A DNA stretch of 62,018 bases, filler included, from Kipferlia bialata (Eukaryota): NCBI GenBank assembly GCA_003568945.1. It is 4 parts of 4 records of this genome, joined end to end, with 100 filler letters (N's around TTAATTAATTAA, not from the genome) between each part and the next. Parts side by side here need not be neighbours in the genome. Positions count along the whole stretch, not along the records: positions 1 to 22,887 come from BDIP01000274.1; 3 more parts are not named here. The stretch is one strand, 5' to 3'. The notes beneath the pieces are model-generated. The model ran no database searches, was not told the DNA's origin, and was given only the letters and a program-made list of their open reading frames with translations. Position numbers and translations under genes: made by a program. This document shows positions 120 to 61,958 of this stretch, in pieces. Each line of letters starts with the position of its first letter. Positions within the stretch are counted from its first letter, which is position 1.

Positions 120-499
120 GTATCAGGGCGTCCCCAAGGCTGCACCTCAGGTATGGGAAGAAGCACTTGAACAATTGGTATTAGTGCATATGTGTTTGGC
201 TGTGTTCTCTAGCATATGTGTGTTTCATGTATTTCCAGTGTCAGTCCAAGAAGCTCAGTAGCTCCCTCTTCTCTCTCCCCCTCTTTCCTTCGCAAATATA
301 TTCGTTCCACCTCTCCTCATCAATCTCCTGTGGCTCTTGGTGCGGCATGCGAGTAGACCACCTGTCTATTTGTCTCTCTTTTATTGACATCTATACTATT
401 CACCTCTTTCTCCCATCATCTATTAGCTTCAGAGTAGTCATGTGCTTGTGCTCACTCATGTCCATCTCATTCTCACCAGGCCCTGGCCCCTTACCCAAA

Positions 500-549
<50 letters not shown>

Positions 550-3500
550 TGTCTCACCAATCAGGCACTGGCCCCGACCTGTAGCGTGTCCATCAGCCAC
601 CGTACGTGCCTTCACACTTCTCTGCCCCCCCCCCCGATTCTCATTCTATTTGTGGTATCTCTTTCTAAATCGTACTCTCTCTCATTCCGTCAATCTATAT
701 GTACATATCTATTCCTCACCCTGATGCTGGATTACTTACACACACATACATGTTCATATATATATGTATATGTACATGTGTATATGGGAATTAGAAGAAT
801 ATACACTAAGGCCCACATACATGTACATCTGTGGAGTCTCACCCCCACGTGACATTGTTCATATATACATATACATAAAGAATTGTATATACTATAAGAA
901 TTTTGTACAGTAAATATATCACCTCACCCCCAGGTGATGGTGACCCACACTTCAGACAGGTCGTGGAGACACAGGTATGTAAGAGATGTGTATATTATGT
1001 ATATCACTACACACCACTACCTCTACACCCCTTAACACCCAGTCCGGTCTCAAGCAGTACCAGAGGTTCTTTATGTACTCTCTATATATATGTTCTTTAT
1101 GTACTCTCTCTCCCTCTACACCCCTAGTTATCTCCCTCTACACCCTTACCACCCAGTCTGGTCTCAAGCAGTACCAGGTCAAGGGCAGAGAGTACACAAT
1201 GTACATTGTGGTGGTACGTATAAATATGCATATATACAAGTATGCATTTGCATATATATCCCTAACTCATATTCCTCTCTACACCCTTGAGAGAGAGTAC
1301 ACATTGTACATTGTGGTGGTACGTATACAAGTACATATATACAAGTGTGTATTTGCATATATACCCCACATTCCTCTCAACACCCTTGAGAGAGAGTACA
1401 CAATGTACATTGTGGTGGTACGTATACCCATAAGTATCCCTACACCCATATAGTCCCTATATACACAATTCATATCATTGTGGTGGTACGCCTCTCTCTC
1501 TCTCTCTCTCCCTGCCTCCTAATTCCCTCCCTGTCATTTATCATTCTGTACGTACGCCCTTATTGCCCTCTACACCCTTAATCCCCAGGTCCCTGATGTC
1601 ACCTCACCAGCCACCATCCAGGCACTCGACGCCATGCACCACAGGTATAACACTCTTTCTCTCTATTGTGGTATTTATATGAATTTTTGTATACATGCGT
1701 AAATATCTTACCCGTAGCCCCCATCCTGATTACCCTATTCTCTCTCCCGTTCCTTTTGTATCTACCTCCTATCAATGTATGTCATATATATATACAGTGT
1801 TCATCCCTAGGCTCCCCCCCCCCCATAATGATGACCCTGTATTTTGATAATACTATTCTGTCTCTCTCTCTCCTTCTATATCTATCTTCCTATCAGTATT
1901 TATACATCTCATCCCTAGGTTCCTCCCCCCCATCATGATGACCCTGTTCACAGACGACAAGGATATGGCCGGGATGCAGGTATCACTATATATGAATTAG
2001 TATATATATATATATATATATAGTATCTAGAGCATGTGCATGAAATGTATATGTACTTTTAGTTACTAATACCTGTTCACAGAGGACAAGGACATGGCTG
2101 GGATGCAGGTACAGTTCTTGCTCTCTCTCTCTCTCTCCCCCTCTACACCCTTAATACCAGGACCATGTGACCACCCACCTTCTTGTGGTGCCTGACACAC
2201 TGGCAGTCACACAGAGGACATTCAGTGCACTGCAGGTAGAGCATATTAATGCATAGTATAGTACATCCATCGTATGTATTAGAAACTGGTGATTAGTTAA
2301 GTATTATCCATTGAAGATAGTTATTATGCTCTAACACTAGTCCATCGCAAGCATCACTATCTATTTATATACTAGGCCTAGTATTATCGAATCTGTTCAT
2401 CCAGTCCATCACCAACAAGTTCCGGTCTTGTATATATTCTAGTATACCTATATATGTGTGTACATATTACATACTGTATGTACAATATATCCTCTGACCC
2501 CCAGTCCATCACCAACAAGTTCTGGTTCGGAGGCATCACCTTCCTTCAGGCCAGGGTGCACAGAGGTATGGATATATGCTAGTATATATACATTTCTATA
2601 GAATACACATGTATGTCATTCATTATATAATTGTTAATAATAATATGGCATTGATACAGATGTGTAAATTCAAGCCTCACCTTCCTACAGGCCAGGGTGC
2701 ACAGAGGTATGTATGGGTATATTTACTATACATAGCACTAGTATAGTATCATATCATGTCGATATATGTATAGTATAGTATTGATAATATGTATTGAGAA
2801 TCTATCACATTCTTACAGGCCAGGGTGCACATTCATACAATGTATATTGTTTATCATAATACTCAGTATACTATTGATGTGTGTGTGAATACTAGTCGGT
2901 GTCAATACATATCTGCACCCTAATTCCAGGCATTCCCTTCTGCCTGGGCATCCCCAACATACTCGCTTACCTCTTCGAGAGCCAGCAGGTATGGATAGGA
3001 TACATCACATCTGCTTAACTCTGTATATATTCACATGTGAGTTCTTACAACCAGGCTGATCTAGGCCGAGACATGCACCATAGTATACAACATTTACACA
3101 CACACACATATATATATACGTACATATATGTATATAAATATGATATACTAATATCCAGGCTGACCTTGCCCGAGACATGCACCAGCGCATTGGCATGTAC
3201 TACAGTGCAGACACACACGCAGCGGCATTCAAGGTATAGATATAAACCTTCTTCTAATATGTACTGGATATAATTGTGCTCTCTATTCTTACGCCCCAGT
3301 ATGCAGCTGATGCACTGAGTGTGTTTCAACAACTATGTACTTATACTTATACATTGTTGTATTACTAGCTATGGCTCTATTGAATCGTGCCTCACCCCAG
3401 TATGCAGGTGATGCCCTGAGTGTCTTCTGTGACACGTGGAACAAGTCGCAGGTAGGATATATATATGTCTATCTATATATAAGTGTAACTATATGTATGA

Positions 3501-6361
3501 AAATGCTCTATGCTACTAGTTTCTTCTGTGACACATGGAACAAGTCGCAGGTATTGAATATATATACATATATGTATATTCTATGTACACCAGTACGTTA
3601 CGTATGTTACGCCTGGAGCAAGTCGTAGGTATTGGGTGTTCACATTCATGAAACATTACTGTTTTGTTAATGAATATAATGATTAATCTGTATATCCATA
3701 TATGTATATTGGTATATCTTACCCCAGGCCTACACCCGCCTTGGTGTGTCACTGGATGCCAAGACACTCCTCAAGGAGGTAAGAATGTGCATGATGTACA
3801 TTAAGAGTTTGAATTCTATGTATACTATGTATACTGTGTATACTAGGTACGACCATTTCTATATGAGTACCATGTATGTATTACCAAATGATATATTCGT
3901 ATCTGACCCTCCCAGCAGCTGCTCGTCTACAAGTATGTACTTAATACCTCTTGTACACTACTGGTATCTTCATCGCTTCATCGCTACTCTCTTTGTATCG
4001 TGTAGGAGTCTCACCCCAGCAGCTGCTCGTCTACAAGCTCACAGGGACACCACTCATCCCAATCGGAGGTACATACAAGTATACCTGCTGTGGATTTCCT
4101 TGGTTCTTCACCAGAATTTGAGTTCTAATCTCCAGAATATGATGTTTGTTCCCATGCATTTCGGTCTCTTTCTCTAATCCCCAGAGTCCCCTGCGCAGAA
4201 GAGAGAGCGGGAGGAGAAGGAGAGAGAGATGAGAGAGAGAGAGAGAGTGCAGCAGGAGGAGAGGCAGAGGAAGGCCTTTGTGGCACTCACACCGGTGGAC
4301 CTGACACCAGAGATTGTGCTGGGTAATCTATCTCTCTACTATACTCTCGTTCCTCCGCACATAACCAGCCCATAACCGGCCCATAATCACCACATTCATC
4401 TCTCTACATATCATTTTTCCCTAGTGTATATATATTAAGAATAATTGTTTATGTTACCCCCAGGTGTCCTCCGTGCTAGGTTGGTACCAATTACTATTAG
4501 TGTACTTAGTAGATTATACATTAATATACATTAGAGCATTCCTTGAAGTAGTAAATAGTAAATTAGTTTGTATATACCTCACCCCCATGTGTCCTCCGTG
4601 CCCACAATCACCACTCGGTCAGGGCACCAGTCACACGGGCACTGCAAGGTATAATTCTTACTGTGTATAGTAATTTTCTAAACTGTGTGTGTATATGTAT
4701 TATTTCTAAACTTTGTATATGTATTAAAATATCTTATATCGTGTAATATATGGTCCATGTCAACCACTCGGTCACCAGTGAGAAGGACACTGCAAGGTAT
4801 ATATATGGTATTATGCCTGACCCTGTTGTATGTACACAAGGACACTGCAAGGTATCATACATTCTGTAATATGGAGTGTTTATCTCCCCGTCTATCCCTC
4901 TTTTTCCCTTATTGCCAGACGTGCTGTCCTCCCGCCGTCCCACCGCCCCCATCCCCGGTCATGCCATGCTCATACTGTGGGGGGCAGAGAGCCAGGTAAA
5001 TGTGTACTATATACACATGTAGATATATATATATATAGTATAGTATAGTAACGTATGGTATACCCCATCCCCGGTCATGCCATGCTCATACTGTGGGGGG
5101 CAGAGAGCCAGGTGTGTATAGTATACATGTATATATAATGTACTATTGTATACTCCATACCGTGTGTAGTAATACACCCTTGCATCAGGTCGGCGTGTCC
5201 CACCTGTATGGCCATGTCCCGATCATTGTTACTATCATATATATCTATCTAAATATATATCTATATACCTACTAGTGTATATATACCTTAACCCTCAGGT
5301 CGGTGTGTCCCACCTGTATGGCCATGTCCACAACAGTGGGGTCACGGCATCAAGTCTCATGGCTGAGGTACTGTATGTGTTCATGTATATATATATATAG
5401 TATATGCTGTTGTATGTGTATAGTGTCATATACAAGTATGTGTCCACAACAGTGGGGTCACTGTATATGTATATATATTAGTGTAAGGATTAATATATAT
5501 ATATATATATATATATACTATATGTCCACAACAGTGGGGTCACGGCATCAAGCTTAATGGCTGAGGTACTGTATGTGTGTATGTATATCCCTTCTCTCTA
5601 GTATACTTGGATATATGTATTCCAAAATACTCTCTCACAATATATATCTCCCTCTAGCCCCCCACATGCCCTTATTACCTTCTCTCCCCCCTCCCCCTCT
5701 ATATATATACAATTGTATATACACATATACATTTCTATATATATGTATACGACCTCACTCCAGCCCACCCCCCATGCCCGAGTTGCCTTCTCTCTCTCTC
5801 TCTCTCCATCTCTCTATATAGTATACCCTTCTTACACTAGCCCACCCCCCATGCCCGAGTTGCCTTATCTCTCTCTCTCTCTCTCCCACTCTCTCTAATA
5901 CCAGCCCACCCCCCATGCCCGTGTTGCCTTCTCCTCTGCTGCTGTCATGGACATGGACAAGGTGGCACTCAAGAAGGTATGGAGTATATGTATTATAGGT
6001 ATATTATATATATATATAGTATATATCATTAATGAATTATATATAGTTGTATATACTGCCTTCTCCTCTGCTGCTGTCATGGACATGGACAAGGTGGCAA
6101 CAAAGAAGGTATGATATACATATTCTAACTAAGGTATATATTTGTATAGTATTATACTATATGTATATTACTCCTCTGCTGCAGTCATGAACATGGACAA
6201 GGTTGCGATGAAGAAGGTTTGATATATGATATATATAGAAATATATGGCTCCTGTAACGTATACATCCTTACCCTCAGAACGCCCTTGCCGCTGAGCCCT
6301 ATGCAACCATGGCCAGACGGATAGGAGAAGTACTCACAGAGGTAACATTATATATACACGC

Positions 6362-6392
<31 letters not shown>

Positions 6393-9300
6393 GAGAGAGA
6401 AAGAGGGAGAATCTATGCCCCCATGGTCGCGTAGGAGATGTACTGACGGAGATATATATTGTATATATAATAATCATGTCTTCCAGATATTTCTCTTTAT
6501 CAGTAGAATTGCACTTACCACTGGAAATTTTTAGTATACTTTTGGCTCACCCTTCCAGTGGGCATCTGCCTCTCTCAAGGTGTCATTGATATCTCTCCCA
6601 TCAGATACGGGTATATATATCGATATCTTTACTCTTCTAACCCCCAGTGGGCCTCTGCCTCCCTCAAGATATCCTTCATATCATCTGCCACATCGTATAT
6701 GCATGTGTATTTATGTATATATCCGTCGTCTCACCCTTCCAGTGGGCCTCTGCATCCCTCAAGGTGTCTGTGGTTATAGCTGGCACCATGGCAGACAGTG
6801 CAAAGTGAGTATTTATACAGGAAATACGATAGAATTTATATGGAACATATAGTATACAGTATAGAGAGAGATAAGTGTCATAGCTGGCAAGATGGCAGAC
6901 AGTCCAAAGTGAGTATATAATAGTAGTATATAGTATATATAGTGAATATAGTACATATAGTACATATAGTACATATTGGTAATATATACAATAATATGTA
7001 TGAATACGCACTGGCCTTGGGATGCACTTCAACATAGCCTCTCTCTCTCTCTCTCGCTTCCATTATAATAATAATATGCTGGGTATCCTCTGACCCCAGC
7101 TGGCGCACTGGCCTTGGGATGCTGCTGCAGCCCTTTGGCAGTGCATGTGCACACGACATCACAGACGAGGTGTGTATACAAATGTATATATGTATTAGTA
7201 TACATTGGTATTTCCTTTACTCCGAGGATTTGTTCTCATCTTTGGACGTTCCCATCATTGCTCAATACTGAGTATTTGCATTTTCTATAACATTAAGATG
7301 TATATATATATGACTTGTTTACATCTGATTATCAGGACCTCCTCCCCTTCCTTGGCCGTGCCGCTGACTACATATCTGGCATGGACCTGCCCACATTCCA
7401 CACAGACAGTAGGGTGGCTAAAGGTACGTTATATGGTGTGTTATGCATTTGCAGTGTGTTACACCTCCTTCTAGCTCTAGCGAGCCCCTAAACCTCTCTC
7501 AGTATGAGGTTATAGTGGTATTTGTTCCATCTCTATAATCACTTTCCCTTTCCGCCAGTCACCTCCTCTGCCCTGACAGAGCAGATTTCTGTCTCTCTTT
7601 CTCTCTCTCGCACCAGACCATGCTGTCGGAGTCACTGGGGAGACTGGCCATACTGCAGGTGTGTGTATAGTATATATACTCTAGTAATAGTTGTGTGTCA
7701 TAGTGTGTTTTGCTATTAGAAACATGCTGTGTGAGTCACTGGGCAGACTGGCCATACTGCAGGTATTTGCAGTAAGTATCATGTGTTATATACTCTATAT
7801 AGAGCAAGACAACGATATGTGTTACCAGACGATGCTGTTAGAGTCACTCGGCAGTAAATATATATAGATTATACATATAGTATTACATATCTAGGTGTTA
7901 TATATCTAGTATGTTCATTCATTTTGTAGAAAATAGAGTCTATACAAAACCCAAATGCCCCACCTCAGGCCCAGTCTACCAGGGCTAATACAGTATATTG
8001 TCATACATTATATAGAGATGATAGAATATGCTCCCTATTAGTGCTGACCCCAGGCCCAGTCTGCTGCGAGGGCCAAGGCTGACAGCCAGAAGAAGAGAGA
8101 GGAGGAGAGGGAGAGAGAGAGAGAGGAGGAGAAGAGAGAGAGAGAGAGAGAGGCGCAGGTGGCAGCTGAGAGGGAGGCCAAGGCTGCCCAGAAGGTGTGT
8201 AGTAGTGTACATTTATACATGCTATGTACTCCTATATGTATAGCAGTACTGATACCGGCAATATCCCAACACTATATTTGTGTGTATGGACAGATATATG
8301 GGTTTATACTGACCACAGGCGAAGGCCAAGGCCGCCCTCCTGGAGAGGGAGAGAGACACTGAGGGAGAGTATGGCGAGACCGACTACATTGAGGACTTCA
8401 TCGACATGCTCTTTGATGCATTTCCACAGGTATCTACGATATATATAGTATATACACTACATCGAAAGTTGGTAGATAGGTTGTCATGTTATTCGTGTTT
8501 ACATATTAATTAGACTTCATCGACATGCTCTTTGATGCATTCCGACAGGTACTATAAGTTTAGAGTATATATACTAAATTGACGAATCTTTATCTACAGT
8601 TCTATTTGTGTTATATAGGACTTCATCGACATACTCTTTGATGCATTCCCACAAGTATCTAATGTACTGTGGTTGGTAGATGTGCAGTTGTGCTAGTCGT
8701 GTATATATTGTACTAACCGATTGTCGATGCATTCCACAGGTACAAGTAGTAAACGTACAATTGAGGGTTTGCTGAGAGTACATAGACGATTTGTATGGTA
8801 TCTTCGTTGATGCCTCTATATATCTTGGAATATCACTCTAGGCCAGCGACAGATATGGGCGATGTTTAGTATGCATCTGTTTCGTATTGTAATATTTGCA
8901 CACATTTTTGTATATACCTTTTATGGATCTCATTCTAGGCCACCGACAGATACCCCCCTGATCCCTTCCCCCAGGAGGTCGTCATACCAAAGTGAGTCTG
9001 TGTGCATATACTGTCAACGTATGTATACCTACTTCCTCTTTCTTTCCACAGGCCCTTATATCAGGTCCACCCTCTATCTTGTTGTGGGTGCCAGATACAA
9101 CGACCAGGAGGCACTCACGGACAACCTGACCGGAGTCGGAATCAGGTATTCCATATATATAAAAAGTATTGTAATATATGGATGTATCATGTATATTATA
9201 TATATACATATATTATGTACGATGATCAGGAGGGACTCAGAAACAACCAAACAGGGGTTGACATTAGGTAATGTACATGCAATATTTCAGTATTATACTA

Positions 9301-11317
9301 CTTCATATTCTGGGGCTCGAAGCATTACCCTCCAGTGCTATATATCCACACCCATAAGAAGGTATGTATACCCTAGTTGTGACGTCTAAACCTAACATCA
9401 GCGTGAGGCATGTCCGTGCGAGTGGTGGCCAGATTGAGAAGATTAGCCAGGGCACAATCAACAGGGCTCAGTGCATAGGTATATATATACATATATATAT
9501 CTATATAATGCTATTATTCTATATTACTCTATATACAATATATACATACTTACATACATACATATGTATACACAATCCTCTCTCCTTCTCTCTCTCTCTC
9601 TCTCCCCCTCTACACCCTTAATGTCAGTCCTGAGTGTGGCTGGTCTGTCCGGGTATGGGGTGGATGCTCTGATAGCTGGTCTCATCAAGACACAGATGGA
9701 AGGGAGGGTACGACATATATACATACATCTATATATATTCAGAAGTATGTATCTCTGAATTTTTGTATACTTTGACTGGTCTCACCAGGACACAGATGGA
9801 GGGCAGGGTATGTACCCTCTCTCTCTCTCTCTCTCTTCAATCTCTACACTCTTTTACCCTGTAGACCATGCACCTCTTTGCCTCTAGGGGTGTAGTGCTC
9901 ACAAAGCCAGAGATCACACCTCTGCACTCGTTCATCGCTAGAGGTACCTAGTCGTTAGTCTTTCTCCCGTCACCTTGTCAAATTCTATTTTCTCTCTCTC
10001 ATTCATGTTTCTAACCCTCCAGCTACCGTGTCCAATGACCATTTCCACCTATTCTCTCTCTCTCTCTCTCTCTCACTCTCTCACTCTCTCTCTCTATATA
10101 TATATAACTCACATCAGCCACCGTGTCCAATGACCATGTACACCTTCTCAACGACATGCACCAGTGCAAGGAGATTGTGGCCAGACAGGTACATAGATGT
10201 ATATATATTGATGTATTATTTACACGAGTGTCAGTATGGTATAGTGTGTATATATAACTATGTATCTTCTGAATGACATGCACCAGTGCAAGGAGTTAGT
10301 CGCAAGACAGGTATACATATATACATAGTGGCATATCTATATCCTGTGTTGGTGTATATATATAATAGTATATTATTATATATATATATATACCTTTTTG
10401 TTTGTTATATGTATATTGTGTTATATTTAGTATATATATATTTAGTATTGGCTAATACATATATATTGTGTGGCCAGACAGGTATGTATAGTACTTAGAG
10501 ATGCATCATATATATTCAGTGATACAGATGATGCTAGATGTAGAATGTTACTAGACAAGTTAGTACTGTATCTGTATACGAAAGAATGAGGGACTCAATG
10601 GGAACCTGTGTTTCTGTCTCTCTTTACGGTATTTTCACTATTTTAGGTGTATCTTCATGCCCTAATCTGTATCGTTACTGACATTCAGCTCATTGACGAG
10701 GTCCGCATAGAGGCAACCCACACCGACCCCAACCTGAGGTACTGTGTATACTTTGTATGTGAATTTATATATATTGTATATTATGTATATTTTTTATACT
10801 GTATATATTTATACTTAGTATGTAATGTTTCTTGTCAATTGTTCTTTCATACGAACACTGAATGTAGTGTATATACACGATAACATATTTAATCGGGCCC
10901 CTCTAACTTCAGGATGTCAACACACACATATCTTGGTATTTAAGTAATTGTTCATTGCACGGTTTTCTAATAACCACAGGACCATTGTCAACAGGCACAT
11001 TGCCCAGCAGAGGCAGAGAGAAGAGGAAAGAGAGCAGAGGCGCATTGCTGAGCTTGCAGAGACTGGTTCCAAGGCTGACTTTGTCGGTCTACCTCTACCC
11101 ACCACTGCAGCTAGGTATACACGCACCCATTATATATATCTCTCTCTATATATATAGATAGAGATACACTCTGCCCACCACTGCAGCTAGGTATGGTCTC
11201 TCTCCCTCCCTCTGTTTCTCAATCTACCCACTAACCCCAGCCCCTCCCCCCCCCAAGTCCCTGCCCCTCCCTGTCATATATTGATTATATCCTTAATACA
11301 TATATATACATACATAT

Positions 11318-11354
<37 letters not shown>

Positions 11355-12346
11355 TGTATACATATACATATACATATCTAACCCCAGCCCCTCCCCTCCC
11401 AAGTCCCTCCCCCTCCCTGTGAATGGAGTGCTCAAGAGGAGTGCCAATCCCCCTCTCTCCTTACCCATACCCGGACTGGCATCTACAACATCTACCTCAG
11501 CTGCATCTACCTCAGCTGCTGTGTCGAAGCCTCTACCCCTACCTGGCACTGGTGCAACACCTAGTACAAGTGGTGCTGTAGCTAGTCCCTCCCTCCCTCT
11601 ACCCACTGGGACACCAGCATCTACAGCTGCCACTGCACCTCTGCCCCTGCCAGTGTCCACATCAATTAGTAGTGCTACTGCTACTCCAGCTGCTGGTGTT
11701 GCAGCAGCTGCAGCATCACTTACTAGGTTAGTCATCTACCAGTGTCCACCCCCAATGTATATGTTGTTACTGCTACTGCTCCAGCTGCTGGTGTATCTCT
11801 CACTAGGTTAGGTAGTGTAGTTTCAAGTACTGCAGCTGTATCCCTTACACGGTCAATCATACTAGTATACATGGAGAACATTCTAGTATTAGTATCAGTC
11901 TAGAGGTCTACACAGATAGTACAATACTGCATGTTGTCTCACCCCAGCAGCGTCCCCACCCTTCCTGTCTATGTCTCCCTATACACTGTGCATATATATA
12001 TATACATACTCATACTCGATATCTTTAGCTATACATAACACACTTCTAACGTCAGCAGCGTCCCCACCCTCCCTGGCTCTGTCTCCCTGTATGGCGGTGC
12101 AGCACTGCGCTTCCTGAACAAAGTGAGGGAGTCCACAACTAAGGAGGGAGAGAGAGAGGGAGAGAGAGAGGGAGAGGTTGTGGCACTTGTCGTGGTACCA
12201 GATTGTATTAAGGGTGCAGCCGAAGAGAATAAGGGTGCAGCTGAGTATGTACAGAGAGACATCTTGGACATGCTGGGTGTGATGGCAGTGGAGGTGGACG
12301 TCAGGCTAGGTAATGTACCATACCATATATATACTCTATATGTATG

Positions 12347-12377
<31 letters not shown>

Positions 12378-15300
12378 GTGATGGCAGTGGGGGTGGACGT
12401 CAGGCCAGGTATGTGCTCTGCCCTAACCCCCCACGCCACCTCTCTCTCTCTTCCTCGCTATATAGGTATATGTATATGTATGTGTGTGTGTATGTTCCTT
12501 ACCAAAGGTCTCTCCACCGTCCTGGGTCCCAAGACTTCTCTTGACTCCCCCTGTGTCCTTGTTCTGCCCCAGTCAGACGTGGAGGGACTCGACAACGGGG
12601 GGACAGAAGCAGGTATGAGGAATATATATATTGAAATATCTCATTATATACATACGTACAATATGAATATTTTGTATTCCTTACTCAAGGCCACTCCCTT
12701 CGTGCTGTCTCCGAGTGCCTGTCCTCTGTGTCATCTGTTCTGGCACCCACAAGTGTGTCAAGGGGGGTATACGCAGGTATTGTTAGTATATATGTAAATG
12801 GTGAGTATACTCCAAGTGTGTCTTCTGTGCTGGTACCTGTCACTAAGGGGGTATATGCAGGTATATATGGCGTGTAGGCTAGCACGCAGTACTAATACGT
12901 GTATATATATTTGTCTCACTCTTCTCACTCTTCAGCCCTCCACCGAGTGGACATGCGCTCTCTGCACCTATGTCTGTTCAGTTCCTTCAGACCCCTTACC
13001 CACTCTGCTACCCAGTCTGACGGGTGTGACAAGCCGTGTGACAAGCAGTCTGAGGGGGTCATTCTACAGCAGTGGACAGCCGCATGCCTCACCAGCTACA
13101 CTCCTGAGGTATGTATAAGAGTGTATATATAGTTCTTATATATATATATATGATATGTATACATTGAGGTAAGAGTATGTGTGTGTCTGCATATATATGT
13201 ACTACTGTGATTGTTGTTATGGTTGTAATATATGTATACTTACAGTAGGAGGAGCCCTGTGACATGACGCCCTCTGCCCTGTGGCCCAAGAAGACACAGC
13301 CACTCCCACTGCCAAAGGTATATATGAAAGTATCAATACAAGTACTGGAATATATATTATGTACATATAATACCCTCTGCCATAATAGTATACATATATA
13401 GGCATGTGTAGTATATGTATATATATATATATATATATATAATACCCTCTGCCCTGTGGCCCAAGAAGACACAGCCACTGCCACTGCCTAAGGTGTGTGC
13501 AATAGTATACACATATATACATGAAAATATGTAATATATATTATGCTGTCTACCTATATACTTACTATCAGGCCCTCTCCCTGCCCTCTGCCCCCTCCAA
13601 GATATATATGAACATCCTCCTATTGATATGACTATAGTACCTACTGACTCCTGATACCACCTGCTTCTCTCTAATCATTAGGCCCTCCCCCTGCCCTCTG
13701 CCCCCTCTCCATAGTGTTGTTACTCATATTCTGTATTTCTCTTTTGTAATGAATTACATATCATATATCTATAATTACTTACTGTCAGGCCCTCCCCCTG
13801 CCCTCTGCCCCCTCCCCTTCCAAGGCACCACTCCCACGCAGCAAGGTATGTATACGGAGTAGTAGTTGTAGTTCAAGAATGACATTAGACTGTCATCTAT
13901 CCAGTGACCCAGGTCCCCTCGCCCAATATTCATATTCTGTTACGTATATTATACACTCACCCCTAGGTCACCTCCCCCCTTGCCCAGTCCGTGTCACTGG
14001 CAGAGGACATACAGCCACAGGTATATACGTATGTATGTGTATAACCGTCGGCTCTATATGTATGGCTCTTGTTAGTATTTGTTACTCACCCCTCAGGTCT
14101 GGGAGGCATTTGAGATGACATTAGCTAGTAAATGGTTTTTTAAAATATAGAAAATGTGTATAGTAATGTACCCCCTTATCTGTAGGTCTGGGAGGCATTT
14201 GAGATGCCACTGGCTACTGTTATGTAATTGAGTCAATACACTATATATATATATATGTATTACATGTATATACATAAGTTCACTCACCCCTTAGGTGTGG
14301 GAGGCCTTTGAGATGCCAGGCTCAGCCTCCATGTTCGATGTCAGGTGTGTACATGTGTACAATTGTGTACATTCATTGTGTATATTAATATGGTATTAAC
14401 TATGGTATTTCGACGTCAGGTATGAAGTCATCTAAATTTGTGTGTATACTATTTGTATACTTCCTATTGACTATGTAAAAGTGACATATTGTATATCTAC
14501 ATCCCGTTAACCCTCCAGGGACGTCTCCTCCCGCATCGACCAGGACCAGGATATACTATTTACTGCCTATATATATACTCTCTCTATATATTACACCCTA
14601 TAACCCCTAGGGACGTCTCGTCCCGTATAGAGCAGGACCAGGAGATCAGCAACCAACCAGTACCTGCACCCGGCAGAATGGCAGGTTGGACCCTTATTAT
14701 ACACAGACTACACCCTTAACACATATACTAGACCCTTTTGTCATGTTTACTAAACCCTTCACATTCCAGACAAGACTGAGTCCTCCCCTGCCTCCGAGGC
14801 AGAGTCTGATAATTTCATTTCTTATAATACTGTATCTTTAATATTGTGTTATGCTATACCCTTACTTTCAGACAAGACTGAGTCCTCCCCTGCCTCAGAT
14901 ACTGAGTCTGAGTCAGTAGAGGAGGAGGAGGAGGATGTGCCTCTCATGCCCAGGGAGCCATACAGGTATCATATCTTTATGTGTATGTTATATACTCATA
15001 TATACATAATACTCCATAATACAGTAAGCTTATATACATGTGCAAATTACTATCAATATCATGCCCAGGGAGCCATACAGGTATTTTAAGACATTTCATG
15101 TGTTATATACTATATGCATAATACTCCACCACCCAAGAGCCTCTCATGCCAAGGGAGCCATATAGGTGTCTTAACATGTTATATACGTTACACACATATT
15201 ATACTATTATATATGAGTATATATGAGTATACTACCAGGGTTCTCTGATGCTAAGGCCCAACCCCTAGCTGAGAGGGATGTCCTCAGCATCAATACACAC

Positions 15301-16312
15301 TCATAGTATATACTATACTGTATATGTATGTATGTATTGTGTATGTGTGACCCTAATTGCTAGGCCCAACTGCGTCCCCCTGTCTGAGAGGGATGTCCTC
15401 AGCATTGATGCCACGGACAAGAAGGACAGGGCAAGGCTGGCCATAGCTAAGGTAGTTTATATATACATATCTGTATCTTTATCTATATATACATTATGTA
15501 GTAGTATATGTGTATAAGTATCGATGCCACGGACAAGAAGGACAGGGCTAGGCTGGCCATAGCTAAGGTAGTATATATATATATATAGTATGTATAGTGA
15601 TATATGGTATATANNNNNNNNNNNNNNNNNNNNNNNNNNNNNNNNNNNNNNNNNNNNNNNNNNNNNNNNNNNNNNNNNNNNNNNNNNNNNNNNNNNNNNN
15701 NNNNNNNNNNNNNCACAGGTATATAACTGTTATATATAAATGTAGTATAATATTGTATATATATATATATGGTATCCATGGTGCAATGAGTGACAGATTG
15801 ACAGGGGGAGGCAGCAGAATACCTAATTGTTACAATACAGGTATTTGTGTAGTATATGTGAGTATGTGTTACATGTATGTTTTTCAGTATTTTGCATGTT
15901 CTATATCCATGAGTGCTAGAGTCACAGGGGGCGATACCATGATACCCCCGCAGTATAGTACATTATATATACACATTTGAATAGTAAGTACTCGCATAAT
16001 CGTCTATCCTCATTCCAGGCTCTGCCACCCCCCAGCATGCCACGGTGTGTGACAAGGAGCACAACATGCTGACTGACTGCCCAGTGCTATTCGTGCACGA
16101 GGAGGATGGGGATTGTACGTATAGTAGTATGTACACAATCACTCACTCAATTGTATATGTAATTAGTAATTGCATGGATATGCACATATTTGTATATATA
16201 TATTTGCTGCCCTGTTTGTACATGAAGTAGGTGGAGGTTGTACGTATATATATATACGTATATATAGATATATATAGATATATTAGTATTTGTAATTGGT
16301 CCATCCCCGCAT

Positions 16313-16347
<35 letters not shown>

Positions 16348-19300
16348 TGCACTCCATATATATAGCAGACTCCTTCCATATCTCACCTCACCATCAGCCC
16401 CATCCCTAGTCGAGTCCCTCAAGTACAAGTACCATGAACATATATGAGTGTATAGATGTTAATGCATTTTAAATGTATATACACTATGTATATACCCTTA
16501 ACCCCCAGCCCCCTCTCTAGTCGAGTCCCTCAAGTACAAGTACACAGGACACCTCAGCCAGACTCTCCTGAAGGTATGGATCAATATATAGATCCTTGAT
16601 AGTTCATCATCACTAAATCAACTGCTATATATTAATATACACATATTTGTTTGTATACATATATGTACGGGGCGACTCAACCAGACCCTCCTGATAGTAA
16701 GAGACAATGTGTTGACTCTGAACATAACCAATCAATTGATGACCATTCATCAAATACCAAATGATCAAGCAGGAAATTGATTTCTCTACTTTCACAATCA
16801 ATCAATTGATGAATATTCATCAATTAATCACTCAGGAGATGGTCCAGACTGGCAGGGTGAGCCCTGTCCTCAACAGACAGACGGGGCAGTACACAGTGCA
16901 CGATAGCAAGCTGAGGTCATATGGATATATAGCTACTGCAATATTACATATACATAGCATACACATATATTGTATGGGACAGACAGGCCGGACAGTACAC
17001 AGTACATGACTCAAAGCTCAGGTATATATATATATGCATGTATACTATATGACATATATACTTGAGTATTAGTATTGTTTGTATTGAACAGACAGACAGG
17101 GCAGTACACAGTCATGGACTCTAAGCTAATGTAATTGTACTCTCTCTCTCGCTCTCTCTCTATATATATCCCTCTACATCCTTAATACCAGGGTGCGTGC
17201 CCTCCCCCTAGGCAGAGGTGTCAGCTCAGTGCTCTATGACAGTCCTCTACCTGTATCTCCAGATGGAGAGGGAGGTGGTGTCAAGGACCCCGAGCCCTCT
17301 CCCATGCCCAACGACTCGCCATTCGACCTGAGGTATTAGTGCACTAATTGTATATACTCTATATTTGTGCTGGGGTATTCTTATATGTGTGTACCCCATG
17401 CCCAACGACTCAGGTAGTCTCTCTCTTTTATCTTTTCTCTCTCTATAATAGTATTGTGATATCTTACCCCGGCCACCTGGCTGATATGGACAAGGAGAGA
17501 GAGAGCATTCATATATGTATATATTACACTCATATACATATCTATAGAAACGCATACATGTATATATTTTGTGGCTAACTCCAGCCACCTGGGTGACATG
17601 GACAAGGACAGGGAGAGCATTCACCTATATATATATATATATATATATGTAAATATACACGCGGGTGTATCTATATGAATACAGATGTCTCACTCCAGCC
17701 ACCGTGGTATTGTATATTTAGATGTATATATATATCAACACCTAACCCCAGCCACCTGGGTGACATGGACAAGGAGAGGGACAAGGAGGCTGAGACTGAG
17801 ACCTGTGAGTGCATGGATGACATTGTACTGGTTGTAGTAGAGAGGGAGATGATGTCAAGGCTGTCACCTATGGTTAAGGTACATATGTATTATGTATATA
17901 TATACATATTCATATATTATTATATGCATGGATGACATTGTACTGGTGGTGGTGGAGAGGGAGATGATGACACGGCTCAGCCCTATGGTCAAGGTATATT
18001 CTGAGATATATATCATACATATCCTATATATAGAGTAATACATCTATATATCGATGACATTGTACTGGTTGTAGTAGAGAGATGATGGGTAGACTCTCTC
18101 CCATGGTCAAGGTAGACTAACCTATAATGACAAAGCTCAGTCCAATAGTATAGGTTTACCAAAACATTCTTATATATGTATAGACCATCGCACGTATGGT
18201 TCTAACTCTAGGCCTGCCTGTCCCGCCCTGTCGTGTCTCTGCTCTGTATATATACACACACAATCATATGTATAGACCTGAATATATTAGTATATGTATA
18301 CATTAAGTGTTGTCTAACGCTAGGCCTGTCTGTCCCGCCCTGGTGTGTCTCTGCTCTGTATCGATAGGGCACCCATTGTCAGCAAGACAGTGTCCAAGGA
18401 GGACAGGGAGAGAGGCGTCGCCTCAGAGGTATGTATCGATACAATTCATATATATGTATATATATGTATACACACACACACATATATAAAAATATATATA
18501 TATATATACACAATATATATTTATACGTCCATGCAATGAGAGCTTCAAAGAAGGACTGAGAGAGACAGGTTGCCTAAGAGGTACCATTTCTTGACGATAT
18601 GTCTACATACCTACTGCATATGCTCTATCTGTACTCACCATCAGGTCCTGTCCCTGCTGACCTCTGTGCATATATACCTCTGTCGATGCTATATATACTT
18701 TAGACTGTATATATCAGTATCTAACTTGTAGGTCCTGTCCCTGCTGACCTCTGTCATCTGTAGTATACAACTTTTGTATATATATATATACCCTGGAATA
18801 TAGTATACAATAACTACTATGTGTCTTCTGACCATCAGGTCCTGTCCCTGCTGACCTCTGTACATAGATATATATACTATCGACTGTATATATCACTATC
18901 TAACATGTAGGTTCTGTCCCTGCTGACCTCTGTGCATAGGTACAGGGAGGGTAAGGCGGCAGACCCCTGGGTGGACAGATGCGTGGTGGCACTGCCTAGG
19001 GTGGATGCAGAGGTATGGGTATTGTGTATACAATACAGTTTGATATGTCTTACCCCAAGATCTCTCCCTGAGGTATATGCCATATATATATATATATGTA
19101 TATCATATGTATAATCAATGAGCAAGTATCTTATCAACAGGACCTGCCCCTGAGGTCAGTGGCTGAGGCAGTGGCAGAGGACAAGGGCGCTAAGGTATAG
19201 TATACAGTGTGTGTAGCATATATGAGTATATGATATAGATGTGATATTCTATGTTATGTGTATATGTATGGCAGAGGCAGTCGCAGAGGACAAGGAGGCT

Positions 19301-20485
19301 AAGGTAATGTATTGCATATATTGCATCTTCACTTGACCTCTATTGACCTTCCTTGACCAATATTGACCCCCCAGGCCCTCCAGCCCTCCTTCATCAGTCG
19401 TGTCGACAGTCTCCCCGGACGTACTAAGCCTAGTAGGAAGAGGAGGATATACACCATAGAGCAGATGCTGGAGTGGGGTGAGTAATGTATATATAATATA
19501 TGTATGGGGGAGGGGGGGGGGAGAGAGAGAGGAGGATATACTCTGTGGCACCTATGCTCTGGGAGTAGTTGTTGTATGTCTACGTATATATATGTGCTAT
19601 TCATAGTGCCTCACCCCAAGGTGCCATGCCCGAGAGCTGGAGACCGCCCACTGTGGCATCACCGCTAGGTACAGTCTGTCTCTCTCTGTCTCTAAATACA
19701 TCACTATATATTTACATTACTATATATACATTGCCACACCTCTCTTACCCCGATAAGTATGTGTATTATTTCTATATACGTTATACCCTTCCTCTCACAG
19801 ATACATATATATTACAACATCATCCATCTCACCCCCCAGGCATGGATGGTGAGCTAGAGGTTGTTGCTGACGGAGAGGGAGAGAGAGAGGGCGACATCCT
19901 CCAGAGATTTGTGGTACGTGGCTCTTCTTCTACACCCTCAATTCCTCTCCTACACCCTTATATCAGGTTCCCGATACTGAGGAGAGCTACAGAATGCTCT
20001 ATCTGGCCCAGGTCGCCAACAAGTACGAGTAGTAACTATTTCATATTTATATTATATATTATATATATTTTCTACATACATATAGATATGTAATATCACA
20101 TTGGTTTGACCCTGGTGTAGATAGTGTATTAGGTATACTTTTATGCATCTCTTATCTTAGGTCCGGTCCCCTCCTCGCCAAGGGTGCCTCCATCCCTTTG
20201 CAATAACTATCCAATTGCATATATACATTAATATAGTATAGTATATCTCTTACTGCTAGGTCCGGTCCCCTGCTTGCCAAGGGTGCCTACCTTATTACCC
20301 AATAACATAGTACATATTAATAATAGTAGAATGTATACATCGGTGTATATATATCTCTTATCCTAGGTCTGGTCCCCCTTGTTATATTTTCTTTCTATAG
20401 TAATAGTATATACATTAATCCTAGGTCCGGTCCCCTACTGGCCAAGGGTGCATCCATCCCAAAGCCACCCAGGCACAAGAGGTAG
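120..20485 (+). CDS. Large multi-exon (~60 short exons) hypothetical protein, 5'-partial, with Glu/Arg-rich and Pro/Ser/Thr-rich segments
   Basis: Hand-spliced GT-AG exons are mostly phase-consistent, e.g. 934-974 (RDGDPHFRQVVETQ), 2505-2565 (SITNKFWFGGITFLQARVHR), 8319-8429 (...DFIDMLFDAFPQ), 17752-17878 (...MMSRLSPMVK), last exon 20425-20485 (SGPLLAKGASIPKPPRHKR*). It crosses an N gap at 15614-15713 and a few junctions (near 240, 4589, 7559) are uncertain. No domain recognised. Confidence 0.75.
1040..1490 (+). repeat. Half-exon echo cluster around exon SGLKQYQVKGREYTMYIVV (1157-1213)
   Basis: Upstream cag|tccggtctcaagcagtaccag at ~1040-1063; downstream agagagtacacaWtgtacattgtggtg|gtacgt at ~1292 and ~1391; cattgtggtg|gtacg at ~1476. 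Confidence 0.95.
15614..15713. other. Assembly gap (100 N) inside the large orphan gene
   Basis: Run of N without the linker motif. Confidence 0.95.
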
Positions 20486-20816
20486 AGGTATAGGTAGAGA
20501 TATGCTCTATACTCTTAGGGAGAGGGAGAGAGAGGAAGTCTTTTAGAGAGAGAGCCACCCAGGCACAAGAGATAGAGAGGGAGAGAGAGAGAGACAGAGA
20601 CAGAGTCAATCCACCCAGACACAAGATGTAGAGAGGGAGAGAATTCAAGACTCTTGTCTATAAGATTGTTGAGGTCTGGGGACTCTCAGTGTGTAGTAGT
20701 GATCGTCATATATGGTTTTTAGAGAGAATGGTACGAATAGATTAGTTAGTTTAATGTGTCTAATCATCAGATTCTATTGAGCTTGATGGGCTTTGTGCTC
20801 TATTATATCTAGCATT

Positions 20817-22826: not shown

Positions 22827-22882
<56 letters not shown>

Positions 22883-22887
22883 CCCCC

Positions 22888-27700: not shown

Positions 27701-28953
27701 GAGTGAGTGGTAGAGACATATACAGTGACACCCAAATATACTCAGGTGTATCTACATAACCACATGAACGCATAGTGATACTTATGTTGCAACAAGAGGA
27801 GGCTTGAACATGTATACCACTCACACTGATGTCGGTAACTGTACAGGCGAGTGGGTCAGTTGATGTCGGAGCATAGGCACAGACGTCGGCATCTGGGATA
27901 GGCTGACCTACAGTTAGACTCTAGTGTTGAACAGATCAAATAGACCATCCCAAATAGCTATACATATACGATATAGGCATATACACTCCTACCTGTCATT
28001 TCATCACGTACACTGCCACTGACACCGAGGGAGTCACAGGGGGTATCACGTAGGAAGTAGGGACCGCACTCCTCGACCTCAATGAAGGCTGGGGTGAGAG
28101 TGAGATGATACACTCATAGTAGTTGCGAAGAGGTGTGGGAACACAGTACTCATATAGCACAATACACTGTATCATAACAATCATATACTTCATATACCTG
28201 GGTACTCTGAATGGGCGATGACAGTAAATATAGTATACTGCATACAATGTTATTTATAGACTAGTATAATATACTAAATACCTGGGCACTCAGTAGGGGT
28301 AGGAGTACCCGTGCCAAGAGAGCAGGCCTCTTCGCAAGTGTCGGTCCCACATAGAAGTGTGGTATCGGGTGATACAGTGTGAGGATCAGGACACTCAAGA
28401 TCGAAGTTACAGCGGAGCTGGGGTGAGAGGCCAGCGACCAATGCAAGTATATGTCTGCAATGACACTATATTATATGTATATATGCAATGGTAAGTACGT
28501 AGGTATATATGGACGTCAGCGTTGTGGACGTCATCAGTATAAACATATCTACACACACACTTATATACATTCGAAGACAGACGCTAGAGTACCTGGACGT
28601 CTGCGACGCTGCCACTGGTGAGACCGGTGGGAATGGTACCCTGAACATAAGAAGAGAGAGAAAGTATAATAGTGTAACTCATAATATAGTAATGTGTAGA
28701 GTACATTACTGTACTATAGAGAGAAAGTACAGTACATAGTATATAGTAGAGAAATGTATAGAGTATACATACCTGTACATAGGAGCACTCTGCCATGAAG
28801 TGGTCAAGGATGGACTCATTGTATAGTATTGTGTAGAATACATTACTAATGTGTATATACATATATATATAGAGAGAGAGAATATATATACCTGTACATA
28901 GGAGCACTCTGCCATGAAGTGGTATATAGAATATGATACATAAAGAAAGAGGA

Positions 28954-28988
<35 letters not shown>

Positions 28989-30270
28989 GTATTGCTATAT
29001 ATATAGTATATATACCTGTACATATGAGCACTCTGCCATGAATTGGTCAAGGATGGGGTCGGTACCGAGGCAGGAGGGGAGTGCAGACTCTAGGTAGTTT
29101 CTGGAGTAGGTGTATGCCCATGGAAACGAGATGGATGCATTAAACCGGCACAGTGTGAGATATAGAGAGACAAGGTGTACCCATTGAGCAGAAGAGTGTG
29201 CAGACTGGGCATGGTGCACACACACTCAGGGAGAGGCCCAACGACACTGGCACCGTTGAGGTCAAGGATGCTGGGGTCAGAAAGAGTGTTGGTAAATAGA
29301 ATAACGTCGCTTGATGAACGATGACCCTAGTTGACAGAAAAGGAGAAGAGCGATAAGAGGTACCGCAGAAGGGAAAGGTCGCATATCTCCTCTGGGAATG
29401 GAGTGCGCATGTTGTTGTCGGGCATGACCTTGGGTGAGAGGCCAGTCGTTAGAGAGTGAGATGTGTTGCTACCCGGTGTCTAGAAGAGGGAGCAGTATGA
29501 CGGGAGGTCCAGAAAGAGAGTGGGACGGACCAGTGTTTGGAGGTGGGCGAGACAGCCGATCTCTGGTGGGAGCTGACCAGACATACCGAAGGAAGATAGA
29601 TCTAGGGAGGCCACGTGACCTGCAGCGGTACAACCCACGCCCTCCTGAGAGTGAGGCAGGGGGAGTGAGGAGGAGTGGGATAGTGATAGTGATAATTATA
29701 CCCTCCTGCCAGTCTGAGAGGGGGGGGTGAGAGGGAGAGGGAGAGAAAGGTCAGGTGAGAATAACAGCTGTGGATGAGGAAGAAGACCCCAGAAATATGA
29801 GAGAGAGCTTGGGCCGAGGAATGTGACAGAAAGAGAGACTGGGATTAGCGAGGCCCTCGCTGCGAGGGAAACAGCAAAAATATATGAGGGAGGCCCAACA
29901 CGTATGGGAGTGAGGGTTGAGTAGCCGGGAAGATCTCATTCTGACTAAGGATCGCGATGTATTTAAGAGATAGGTGGTACCAAGCCTTACACTGTAGAGA
30001 GAGAGAGAGACTCACCCATGTGCAGTGGTCAGGGTAGGACAGCCATCCAAGGCCCTGAGTCCACTCAGGCCCACCTGGAGATAAGGGGTAGAGCCATATT
30101 GGTAAGATATATGTATATGTTACGCTAGCGTAGGTGACGTGTGTACCTGTGGCCATGTAGATTGCCTCCAGAGCATCTCTCTCATTCGTCCCCTCACACG
30201 TGAACCCAGCACTCACTGGCATAGCGCACATCGCGCTGTAGAGCAACAACACACTCAGAAGGAGTATCAT
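24755..30270 (-). CDS. Secreted/surface protein: signal peptide, LRR N-cap and LRRs, Cys-rich linker, 4 carboxypeptidase-regulatory-like beta-sandwich repeats, HYR-like segments, unknown C-terminal domain
   Basis: ATG 30270 MILLLSVLLLYSAMCAMPVSA. Spliced ERDALEAIYMATG|GPEWTQGLGWLSYPDHCTW|EGVGCTAAGHVASLDLSSFGMSGQLPPEIGCLAHLQTL|VMPDNNMRTPFPEEICDLSLLR|ILDLNGASVVGPLPECVC. Repeats of the form GVSGQVxDEMTG|QPIPxAxVC...|GxYxIDLTPFAGEFTNLRVEFTHP. Long last exon ends at TAA 24755. Confidence 0.85.
26660..28040 (-). repeat. Three tandem copies of a two-exon domain module with conserved intron positions
   Basis: IDLTPFAGEFTNLRVEFTHPxYxTEDVEVxVPECG recurs near 27690, 27215 and 26790, each preceded by an exon GQxxPxxxxCxYAPxxxDPLxCT. 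The introns differ in sequence. Confidence 0.9.

Positions 30271-37443: not shown

Positions 37444-37474
<31 letters not shown>

Positions 37475-38703: not shown

Positions 38704-38741
<38 letters not shown>

Positions 38742-39627: not shown

Positions 39628-39673
<46 letters not shown>

Positions 39674-60649: not shown

Positions 60650-60684
<35 letters not shown>

Positions 60685-61922: not shown

Positions 61923-61958
<36 letters not shown>

What the first reader, a model, noticed from the sequence alone, without database searches (positions are those of the whole stretch)
940..20640. Introns filled with polarised half-exon 'echoes' of their own flanking exons
Seen: most exons of this gene, and of the genes at 30841-45872 and 59913-61819, are flanked by 1-5 partial copies of themselves. 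Copies upstream keep branch site, AG and the exon's 5' part, then break off into (TA)n/(TC)n. Examples are 18645, 18732 and 18839 before exon 18911, and 20161, 20260 and 20367 before exon 20425. Copies downstream keep the exon's 3' part and the GT, e.g. ~2680 after exon 2505-2565 and ~6057, ~6171 after exon 5905-5976. Usually only one copy has both splice sites. Inference: a recurrent local duplication process across splice junctions, filtered so that only non-includable halves persist, builds much of the intron sequence. I do not recall this being described as a genome-wide architecture.
Basis: partly seen in the sequence, partly recalled or inferred. Interest (0 to 1): 0.92.

Follow-up and report, generated by a model that had tools for sequence, protein, structure and literature searches.

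The report
Half-exon echoes archive lost alleles
In this free-living protist about two thirds of the exons examined are flanked by stacked half-copies of themselves that differ almost only at silent positions, so they were likely picked up from other working versions of the same gene by recombination, which would make one genome a record of hidden sex and very high diversity.

Summary
Real, and more informative than reported. The window is Kipferlia bialata DNA. In three hand-built genes, 66 of 96 exons carry 145 half-copies in the adjacent intron. Upstream copies keep the 5' end (58 vs 0), downstream copies the 3' end (67 vs 0), 20 keep neither, none both; spacing is about 110 nt. DNA contigs run through 15 of 37 testable echo-exon pairs without mismatch, and a spliced contig fits one copy per exon. 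Polarity follows from tandem-duplication geometry; the filter shows only as missing whole-exon copies. The kind is known: amphioxus 'mirages', human F7 VNTR, CBS 844ins68; this scan met single arrays in other genomes. New: echoes differ from the exon, and from each other, mostly at synonymous sites (pN/pS 0.19; neutral self-copying gives 0.51-0.56). Their lineages therefore diverged while coding, on different chromosomes. Best reading (0.6): offset recombination between alleles about 25% diverged at silent sites seeds and extends the arrays, which account for roughly 60% of intron length. No second strain or long read was available.

The parts
120..20484 (+). Gene 1 (K. bialata KIPB_001825, hypothetical, 5'-partial): 58 modelled exons, 37 with echoes, 75 echoes
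1043..1417 (+). Exon 1157-1213 with upstream echo 1043-1063 and downstream echoes 1292-1318, 1391-1417
1718..2108 (+). Exon 1919-1979 with upstream echoes 1718, 1815 and downstream echo 2072-2108
   Evidence: upstream pair inside X1 contig 2
2405..2831 (+). Exon 2505-2565 with upstream echo 2405-2426 and downstream echoes 2674-2706, 2804-2831
   Evidence: all inside X1 contig 3 (2152-3088, 0 mismatches)
3055..3550 (+). Exons 3159-3233 and 3401-3451 with echoes 3055, 3300, 3518
3916..4068 (+). Exon 4020-4068 with upstream echo 3916-3933
   Evidence: X1 contig 4
4464..4796 (+). Exon 4589-4648, whose acceptor reads AT not AG, with AG-bearing upstream echo 4464-4476 and downstream echo 4763-4796
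   Evidence: 60 nt required by X2 contig offsets; skipped in P0001
4919..5565 (+). Exons 4919-4995 and 5299-5367 with echoes 5063, 5189, 5441, 5522
5660..6451 (+). Exon 5905-5976 with upstream echoes 5660, 5764, 5841 and downstream 6057, 6171; exon 6279-6341 with echo 6413
6559..7169 (+). Exon 6743-6804 with echoes 6559, 6648, 6877; exon 7100-7169 with echo 7007
   Evidence: inside X1 contig 5 (6413-7583)
7559..7854 (+). Exon 7559-7658 (23 nt longer than in X1 contig 6 and X2 contig 8; probably an echo and exon collapsed in the assembly) with downstream echoes 7723, 7824
   Evidence: collapse is inference
8319..9807 (+). Downstream echoes 8513, 8617 (exon 8319-8429), 9218 (exon 9065-9145), 9776 (exon 9628-9707)
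10025..12860 (+). Echoes 10025, 10254, 10469, 11169, 11241, 11736, 11948, 12376, 12817 around exons 10118, 10980, 11388, 12056, 12690
13249..15567 (+). Echoes 13445, 13572, 13682, 14097, 14186, 14519, 14770, 15059, 15139, 15262, 15517 around exons 13249, 13789, 14295, 14611, 14872, 15364
16398..18580 (+). Echoes 16398, 16676, 16979, 17087, 17395, 17473, 17585, 17925, 18050, 18212, 18533 around exons 16509, 16836, 17192, 17752, 18324
   Evidence: 17925 has 6.8 synonymous vs 3.2 nonsynonymous differences
18645..19012 (+). Exon 18911-19012 with upstream echoes 18645, 18732, 18839 (acceptor types alternate A-B-A-B)
19141..19541 (+). Downstream echoes 19269 and 19528 of exons 19141-19194 and 19375-19477
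20161..20626 (+). Last coding exon from 20425 with upstream echoes 20161, 20260 (20367 below cut-off) and downstream copies 20553, 20608
31000..45520 (-). Gene 2: 29 modelled exons, open frame of 1059 codons, 25 exons with 65 echoes
35990..37521 (-). Largest arrays: exon 37317-37270 (2 upstream, 5 downstream echoes) and exon 36486-36433 (1 upstream, 4 downstream)
42385..43047 (-). Exon 42775-42695 with 3 upstream and 3 downstream echoes; 42527 has 8 synonymous and 0 nonsynonymous differences
44157..44974 (-). Exon 44725-44644 with 2 upstream and 4 downstream echoes
59913..61985 (-). Gene 3 (protein kinase): 9 modelled exons, 4 with 5 echoes
28754..29056 (-). Two downstream echoes in a fourth gene, outside the three models

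Best explanation
The introns hold tandem units of about 75 nt of intron plus about half an exon, spaced about 110 nt apart, which differ from the working exon and from each other mostly at silent sites and were likely captured from other functional alleles of the same exon by offset recombination. Shown: tandem arrangement, polarity, spacing, silent-site bias, one exon length per mRNA. Inferred step 1 (seeding): in a lineage whose alleles differ at about 25% of silent sites and far more in introns, exons are the only good homology. A break is repaired by copying from the homologue across a splice site and is finished by an off-register join (polymerase-theta-type), leaving half an exon. Inferred step 2 (growth): a later misaligned exchange between an echo and another allele's exon adds a unit. 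It inherits the old junction but brings fresh allelic sequence and a fresh splice site. Recombination after a same-allele duplication would give the same signature. Inferred step 3 (filter): splicing takes the first donor and last acceptor, so halves are harmless and whole-exon copies are purged. The echoes are likely tolerated by-products without a function of their own.
For: Echo vs exon (143 of 145 echoes; 2 dropped for unclear frame): differences at codon positions 1/2/3 are 72/59/256 of 1409 each; pN/pS 0.19, bootstrap 0.15-0.25; 4-fold sites 173/736. Simulated neutral self-duplication beside a constrained exon gives 0.51-0.56, against 0.18 observed on the same measure. Echo vs echo: 45/28/147 of 682. 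One pair per array, trimmed: 15/282, 10/289, 52/282, P=4e-9. One echo per exon: 24/505, 23/512, 89/501. Distinct variants: 179 synonymous, 97 nonsynonymous. The exon is not the fast lineage: the odd copy in triplets is exon 24, near echo 25, far echo 32, all three different 8; exon odd at 13 of 62 three-copy sites. Divergence is flat with rank (0.174, 0.180, 0.186) and not over-dispersed (chi2 154, df 142), while spread ages give >=183. Echo acceptors differ from their exon's at about half of positions -3 to -14 yet keep branch+AG. Break points agree within 3 nt in 31 of 52 neighbouring units vs 22%. Context from papers: metamonads lack Ku/DNA-PKcs and fornicates lack Rad51A (PMC8516963 section 8); its Supplementary Data 2 lists PolQ, Spo11, Hap2 and Msh2 for K. 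bialata; in hyperdiverse Schizophyllum crossovers favour exons (PMC4209137 abstract).
Against: No second allele or strain was found, so allelic origin is inferred. The implied silent divergence (0.24, JC 0.29) exceeds the 0.20 reported for Schizophyllum (PMC4576712 abstract). Intron-side homology is weak: above background (P about 1e-7), but only 12 of 58 and 13 of 67 flanks exceed the null's 95th percentile, and flank similarity does not track coding divergence (rho -0.10, P=0.28). Spacers are not typical intron halves: downstream spacers have 10% C vs 21% in intron cores. Single echoes are less biased (pos2/pos3 0.36; null median 0.62, 0.5th percentile 0.40). Zero-difference copies are in slight excess (33 vs 23 echo-exon; 16 vs 11 echo-echo). 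The score cut-off trims diverged copies and lowers dispersion. Junction microhomology was not demonstrated. Frequent accumulation of intron junk is odd for a very large population (own knowledge).
Confidence: 0.6

Rival explanations
1. Same capture, but from a few fixed homeologues (an old hybrid, polyploid or asexual line) by mitotic conversion, not from alleles of a sexual population.
For: Explains the silent bias and the uniform divergence equally well. Acceptor types alternate A-B-A-B at 18645-18911 and B-A-B at 6559, 13572, 14097 (by eye). Slight excess of zero-difference pairs.
Against: Two haplotypes predict that about half of echo-echo pairs are near-identical; 16 of 72 have zero third-position differences, 10.7 expected by chance. 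Echo-echo 4-fold divergence (0.233) equals echo-exon (0.235). Three alleles occur at 5 of 103 sites with four or more copies. Only one protein holds the tested exon.
Confidence: 0.2
2. Echoes are under protein-level selection now: they are used in minor isoforms, stepwise (recursive or nested) splicing or template-switched transcripts.
For: Echo splice sites score as well as real ones (donor >= real in 36 of 62, acceptor in 23 of 52). Exon 4589 lacks AG while its echo has one. Amino-acid changes are mildly conservative (P=0.01).
Against: Half-exons lack the partner site, and 5 stop codons and 25 gaps, mostly not multiples of 3, occur in them. The RNA? contig fits one exon length each over 16 exons that carry 23 echoes. 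Exons with upstream echoes do not start with GT significantly more often (12 of 44 vs 11 of 52).
Confidence: 0.08
3. Ordinary mirage minisatellites: neutral self-duplication by slippage or sister exchange, with silent differences reflecting older states of the exon.
For: Same geometry, spacing and concordant junctions as amphioxus mirages. A few units have closely similar intron flanks (anchored scores 56-76). This is the reading of e1-7880682 for a sea-urchin array.
Against: Predicts pN/pS >= 0.5 for echo-exon and echo-echo; observed 0.18-0.19. Predicts the exon as the usual odd copy and older copies as more diverged; neither is seen.
Confidence: 0.07
4. Assembly artefact: alleles of a mixed or heterozygous culture stacked in tandem.
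For: Allele-like differences are what stacking would show. The published K. bialata assembly is short-read only (PMC5874029 section 7). X1 may be the window's own source, so it is not an independent sample. One local discrepancy exists at 7559-7658.
Against: Seven X1 contigs of 477-1869 nt fit with 0 other letters at similar depth (334-420) and carry 15 echo-exon pairs through their non-homologous junctions. Only 16 of 145 echoes share an exact stretch of 31 nt or more with a family member, none 55 or more, so most could not be merged in a k-mer graph. The one discrepancy looks like a lost copy, not an added one.
Confidence: 0.04

Closest known systems
Amphioxus 'mirages' (Adh3, globins BflGb6 and BflGb9, troponin C, PGBD5); PMC3087553 passages, PMC3902484 passage; Canestro 2002 not held
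   Same: Tandem duplications of exon-intron boundaries at both 5' and 3' edges, same polarity, units of 60-160 nt (10-72 at Adh3), 81-100% identity, many keep AG/GT, normal splicing, unequal crossing-over proposed.
   Different: Reported at a handful of loci, versus 66 of 96 exons here. Mirages show concerted evolution within clusters; here units are equidistant, 55 of 93 arrays have one unit, and spacers are barely alignable. The word 'synonymous' does not occur in the globin paper's main text.
Human CBS c.844_845ins68 (PMC7490669 passages; PMC2630376 passages)
   Same: A single upstream echo: the last 52 nt of an intron plus the first 16 nt of an exon, a few divergent bases; splicing removes the upstream copy, and the two copies can carry different alleles (833C and 833T).
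   Different: One polymorphic event in one gene, shorter unit, low-diversity species.
Human F7 intron 7 37-bp VNTR (PMC1557585 abstract)
   Same: Downstream copies of the exon end and donor; the most upstream donor is used although the pseudo-sites are functional.
   Different: Homogeneous short minisatellite with identical sites; no allelic signature.
Duplicated exons in Drosophila Y-linked genes (PMC8794474 passages)
   Same: Intragenic exon duplicates attributed to end-joining by microhomology where Ku is scarce.
   Different: Whole exons or exon blocks, no homologue as template, no half-exon polarity described in the passages seen.
Intron gain by tandem genomic duplication (PMC3265369, PMC4974935; search listing only)
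   Same: Local duplication involving splice signals.
   Different: There a duplication inside an exon creates a new intron; here existing introns lengthen and no intron gain was shown.

Membership tests
Mirage (splice-boundary minisatellite) | Tandem direct repeat whose unit spans an exon-intron boundary | tested here: met
   145 direct copies in adjacent introns, with splice dinucleotide and intron-side similarity above background
Mirage (splice-boundary minisatellite) | Occurs at both 5' and 3' exon edges; many units keep AG/GT | tested here: met
   52 of 58 AG, 62 of 67 GT
Mirage (splice-boundary minisatellite) | Normal mRNA splicing is unaffected | tested here: met
   4 of 4 intervals on X2 contig 8 equal one-copy exon sums; X2 is only guessed to be RNA; minor isoforms not testable
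Mirage (splice-boundary minisatellite) | Concerted evolution: units within a cluster more alike than to the boundary copy | tested here: not met
   Echo-echo 4-fold divergence 0.233 vs echo-exon 0.235; triplets star-like
Mirage (splice-boundary minisatellite) | Copy-number variation between haplotypes or cells | not testable with these tools
   One sample, contigs only
Neutral pseudo-exon from self-duplication | Differences without codon-position bias (pN/pS >= 0.5 to the exon, >= 0.5 and usually near 1 between copies) | tested here: not met
   0.19 and 0.18
Tandem whole-exon duplication / mutually exclusive exons | Both copies have acceptor and donor | tested here: not met
   0 of 145
Recursive-splicing ratchet points | AG immediately followed by GT at the intronic site | tested here: not met
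   12 of 44 exons with upstream echoes start with GT vs 11 of 52 without; lariats not testable
Capture from another allele or homeologue | Echo variants match functional alleles in other individuals | not testable with these tools
   No relative found
Capture from another allele or homeologue | Microhomology or templated patch at the off-register junction | tested here: inconclusive
   Junctions listed; spacers too diverged to define the pre-event sequence

The most novel reading that the evidence does not exclude
K. bialata introns are a genome-wide archive of alleles. An ongoing repair route that uses exons as the only homology islands, in a cell without Ku and Rad51A, stacks halves of other individuals' working exons beside nearly every small exon and has built most of the intron mass. 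A single assembly then records several haplotypes per exon, silent diversity of about 0.25 (above any figure in the papers I saw) and recombination in a group where sex has never been observed.
Probability: 0.4. Interest if true: 0.88.

Novelty: new variant of a known kind. Interest (0 to 1): 0.7.

Why it matters
It offers a concrete route of intron growth and an explanation for mirage repeats, whose mechanism PMC3087553 calls unclear. [quoted passage not shown] The organism is also a natural test of splice-site choice by position, since equally strong sites are ignored and one exon appears to be included behind AT instead of AG. It bears on using K. bialata intron content as a proxy for the ancestral fornicate state, and on annotation errors in such genomes.

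Tried and rejected
No whole genome was held, so no genome-wide count. An automatic gene parser over-called tiny exons and was replaced by hand models. No run is on record as RNA; X2 is a guess. Reads were laid on 900-10340 only, and only 16 of 1129 contig pieces were listed. Searches for relatives found none: Kelch-like ORF, P0001 in metagenome contigs (30 pattern hits, none confirmed), g2 large exon; the g2 35-aa exon returned 2 repetitive proteins at 39-50% identity that I do not take as relatives. P0001 has no Pfam hit above cut-off. Not supported: break-off at (TA)n/(TC)n; ratchet points; depletion of strong donors in upstream spacers (1 in 3424 nt vs 10 in 6211 nt, P=0.11) or of acceptors in downstream spacers (P=1.0); base-composition bias as the cause of the third-position excess (all four bases show it). 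'Old exon split by insertion of a new copy' was considered because upstream ends and downstream starts lie within 13 nt in 20 of 27 exons (null 13.5, P=0.002). It fails for the 7 others, mostly long exons, many exons have one side only, and by eye the overlap zones rarely share variants; left unexplained. Literature: ten searches listed no paper describing this in Kipferlia or a synonymous signature in such repeats; 'duplicat' and 'exon' occur 0 times in the main text of the genome paper. The library lacks most subscription papers, Canestro 2002 among them, and I did not read the genome paper's supplements.


Full report
Source and models. The window is eukaryotic, several scaffolds joined across N runs. 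One exon matches P0001, Kipferlia bialata KIPB_001825, at 100%. No genome was held. I modelled three genes by hand: g1 58 exons (120-20481, +), g2 29 exons (45520-31000, -), g3 9 exons (61819-59913, -). g2 (1059 codons) and g3 have no stop. 55 of 58 g1 exons are found whole in P0001; the misses are 4589, 7559 and 16019. g2 and g3 rest on the open frame alone, apart from a weak kinase hit for one g3 exon.

Exons match their adjacent intron at score >=26 in 91 of 186 pairs, unrelated introns in 0.6% of 1152, second-neighbour introns in 3 of 180. There are 145 echoes on 66 of 96 exons, median identity 94%. Upstream copies keep the 5' end in 58 cases and the 3' end in none; downstream copies keep the 3' end in 67 and the 5' end in none; 20 keep neither; none both. 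The period is 110 nt (IQR 99-125, minimum 56): about 75 nt of spacer plus 29-36 nt of exon. Introns gain 103 nt per echo (r = 0.88, 92 introns), and periods sum to 16.3 kb against 27.4 kb of intron. A separate scan found 58 such repeats in 930-15600 and none in 20700-24700, 45980-54200 or 54290-59650, which hold intergenic DNA, large exons and intron-poor genes. Break-off at dinucleotide repeats is at background level.

It is probably not an assembly artefact. On 900-10340, seven contigs of DNA run X1 fit with no other letters at depth 334-420, and 15 of the 37 echoes there lie with their exon inside one listed contig. Only 16 of 145 echoes share 31 identical letters with a family member. X1 may be the window's own source, and these are short-read contigs. 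Contig 8 of X2 (guessed RNA) lands on five exons at record positions that equal the one-copy sums in 4 of 4 intervals, across 16 exons bearing 23 echoes. This fixes lengths, not which copy supplies each letter.

Polarity is geometry; the filter is elsewhere. A tandem duplication with one end in an exon must leave the 5' half upstream or the 3' half downstream (argument, not a result). Random duplications of the observed lengths would contain a whole exon in 19-23% of the cases that carry a single site or a whole exon; 0 of 93 arrays do. That supports removal of includable copies, although a mechanism that stops inside exons would look the same. Echo splice sites are as strong as real ones, so position decides: first donor, last acceptor. 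This matches F7 (PMC1557585 abstract) and CBS 844ins68 (PMC7490669 passages).

The unexpected result. Echoes differ from the exon at codon positions 1/2/3 in 72/59/256 of 1409 codons; pN/pS is 0.19 (0.15-0.25), from 143 of 145 echoes. A neutral copy beside a constrained exon gives 0.51-0.56 in simulation. Echoes differ from each other in the same way: 45/28/147 of 682, and 15/282, 10/289, 52/282 with one trimmed pair per array. The exon is not the fast lineage (odd copy: exon 24, near 25, far 32, all different 8), and divergence does not rise with distance. So the reading given in e1-7880682 for a sea-urchin array, that copies preserve older exon states, fails here. One chromosome has one working position per exon, so two copies that both diverged under coding constraint must have done so on different chromosomes (inference). 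Echo acceptors fit this: about half of positions -3 to -14 differ, yet 49 of 58 keep branch site and AG.

Mechanism (inferred). Alleles about 25% apart at silent sites and hardly alignable in introns pair only at exons, as reported for crossovers in Schizophyllum (PMC4209137 abstract). Repair that copies the homologue across a splice site and ends in an off-register join seeds an echo. Metamonads lack Ku and DNA-PKcs and fornicates lack Rad51A (PMC8516963 section 8); that paper's Supplementary Data 2 lists PolQ, Spo11, Hap2 and Msh2 for K. bialata. Misaligned exchange between an echo and another allele's exon then adds units, keeping the junction (31 of 52 neighbours within 3 nt vs 22%) and importing new allelic sequence; arrays show less nonsynonymous change than single echoes (0.026 vs 0.062 at position 2). 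A same-allele duplication followed by recombination with other alleles gives the same signature, so the data require exchange between diverged haplotypes but do not fix the first step. Against: no second allele was found, the implied diversity exceeds the 0.20 of Schizophyllum (PMC4576712 abstract), intron flanks are only weakly similar and do not track coding divergence, and spacer composition is unexplained. A few fixed homeologues remain the main rival (0.2).

Comparison. It works like an amphioxus mirage (PMC3087553 passages; PMC3902484 passage) and meets the structural features. It fails concerted evolution within clusters, and length variation was untestable. I file it as a variant of that kind. 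New here are the density and the allele signature. Ten literature searches listed no description for Kipferlia; the original mirage paper could not be read. PMC6679479, PMC2630376, PMC4888836 and PMC8794474 were seen as passages only. The lead to mirages came from e1-7880682; e1-9829660, e1-7810567 and e1-7276715 note similar single arrays in other genomes, unchecked by me.

Verdict. Real feature, known geometry, unusual scale, and a statistically firm sign that the copies come from other coding haplotypes. Interest 0.7; 0.88 if genome-wide allele stacking in a recombining, hyperdiverse population is confirmed.

Noticed in passing
window 4587-4648 (+): The complete exon has AT instead of AG at its acceptor (X1 contig 4 agrees), its upstream echo at 4464 has AG, the RNA? 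contig needs these 60 nt, and the annotation skips the exon. No convincing canonical 60-nt alternative was found.
   Followed up: partly
window 7559-7658 (+): The window is 23 nt longer here than both X1 contig 6 and X2 contig 8, and X1 contigs break at this point; probably an echo and its exon were collapsed in the assembly, and P0001 is mis-modelled here.
   Followed up: partly
spacers in g1-g3: Spacers after donors are C-poor (10%), spacers before acceptors G-poor (10%), against 21% C and 15% G in intron cores: a mirror-image strand bias, possibly from damage to exposed single strands or from selection against splice motifs.
   Followed up: partly
27 exons with echoes on both sides: The end of the upstream echo and the start of the downstream echo fall within 13 nt of each other in 20 of 27 exons (null 13.5, P=0.002).
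   Followed up: partly
window 26652-28042 (-): A gene with in-frame internal repeats of 426-534 nt that include whole exons and introns (76-84% identity): whole-exon duplication survives where it makes a protein repeat.
   Followed up: no
window 31000-45520 (-): The g2 translation shows calcineurin-like metallophosphoesterase motifs (recognised from recall, no family search on the spliced protein).
   Followed up: no
window 59913-61819 (-): g3 is a protein kinase (weak PF00069 hit); it resembles PRP4-type kinases (recall).
   Followed up: partly
window 23206-24162 (+), 56122-57006 (+), 57803-58678 (-), 21205-21918 (-): Intron-poor ORFs without echoes: 23230-24159 is Kelch-like and 21205-21918 kinase-like; the other two look Kelch-like by eye. 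The first has no relative at E<=0.001.
   Followed up: partly
window 54400-54640 (+): By eye, short repeated acceptor-like pieces precede an exon, possibly upstream echoes; they were below the threshold of the repeat scan.
   Followed up: no
window 22888-22987, 45873-45972, 59654-59753: N runs with a short AT linker mark joins between separate scaffolds, so the genes are not neighbours in the genome.
   Followed up: yes
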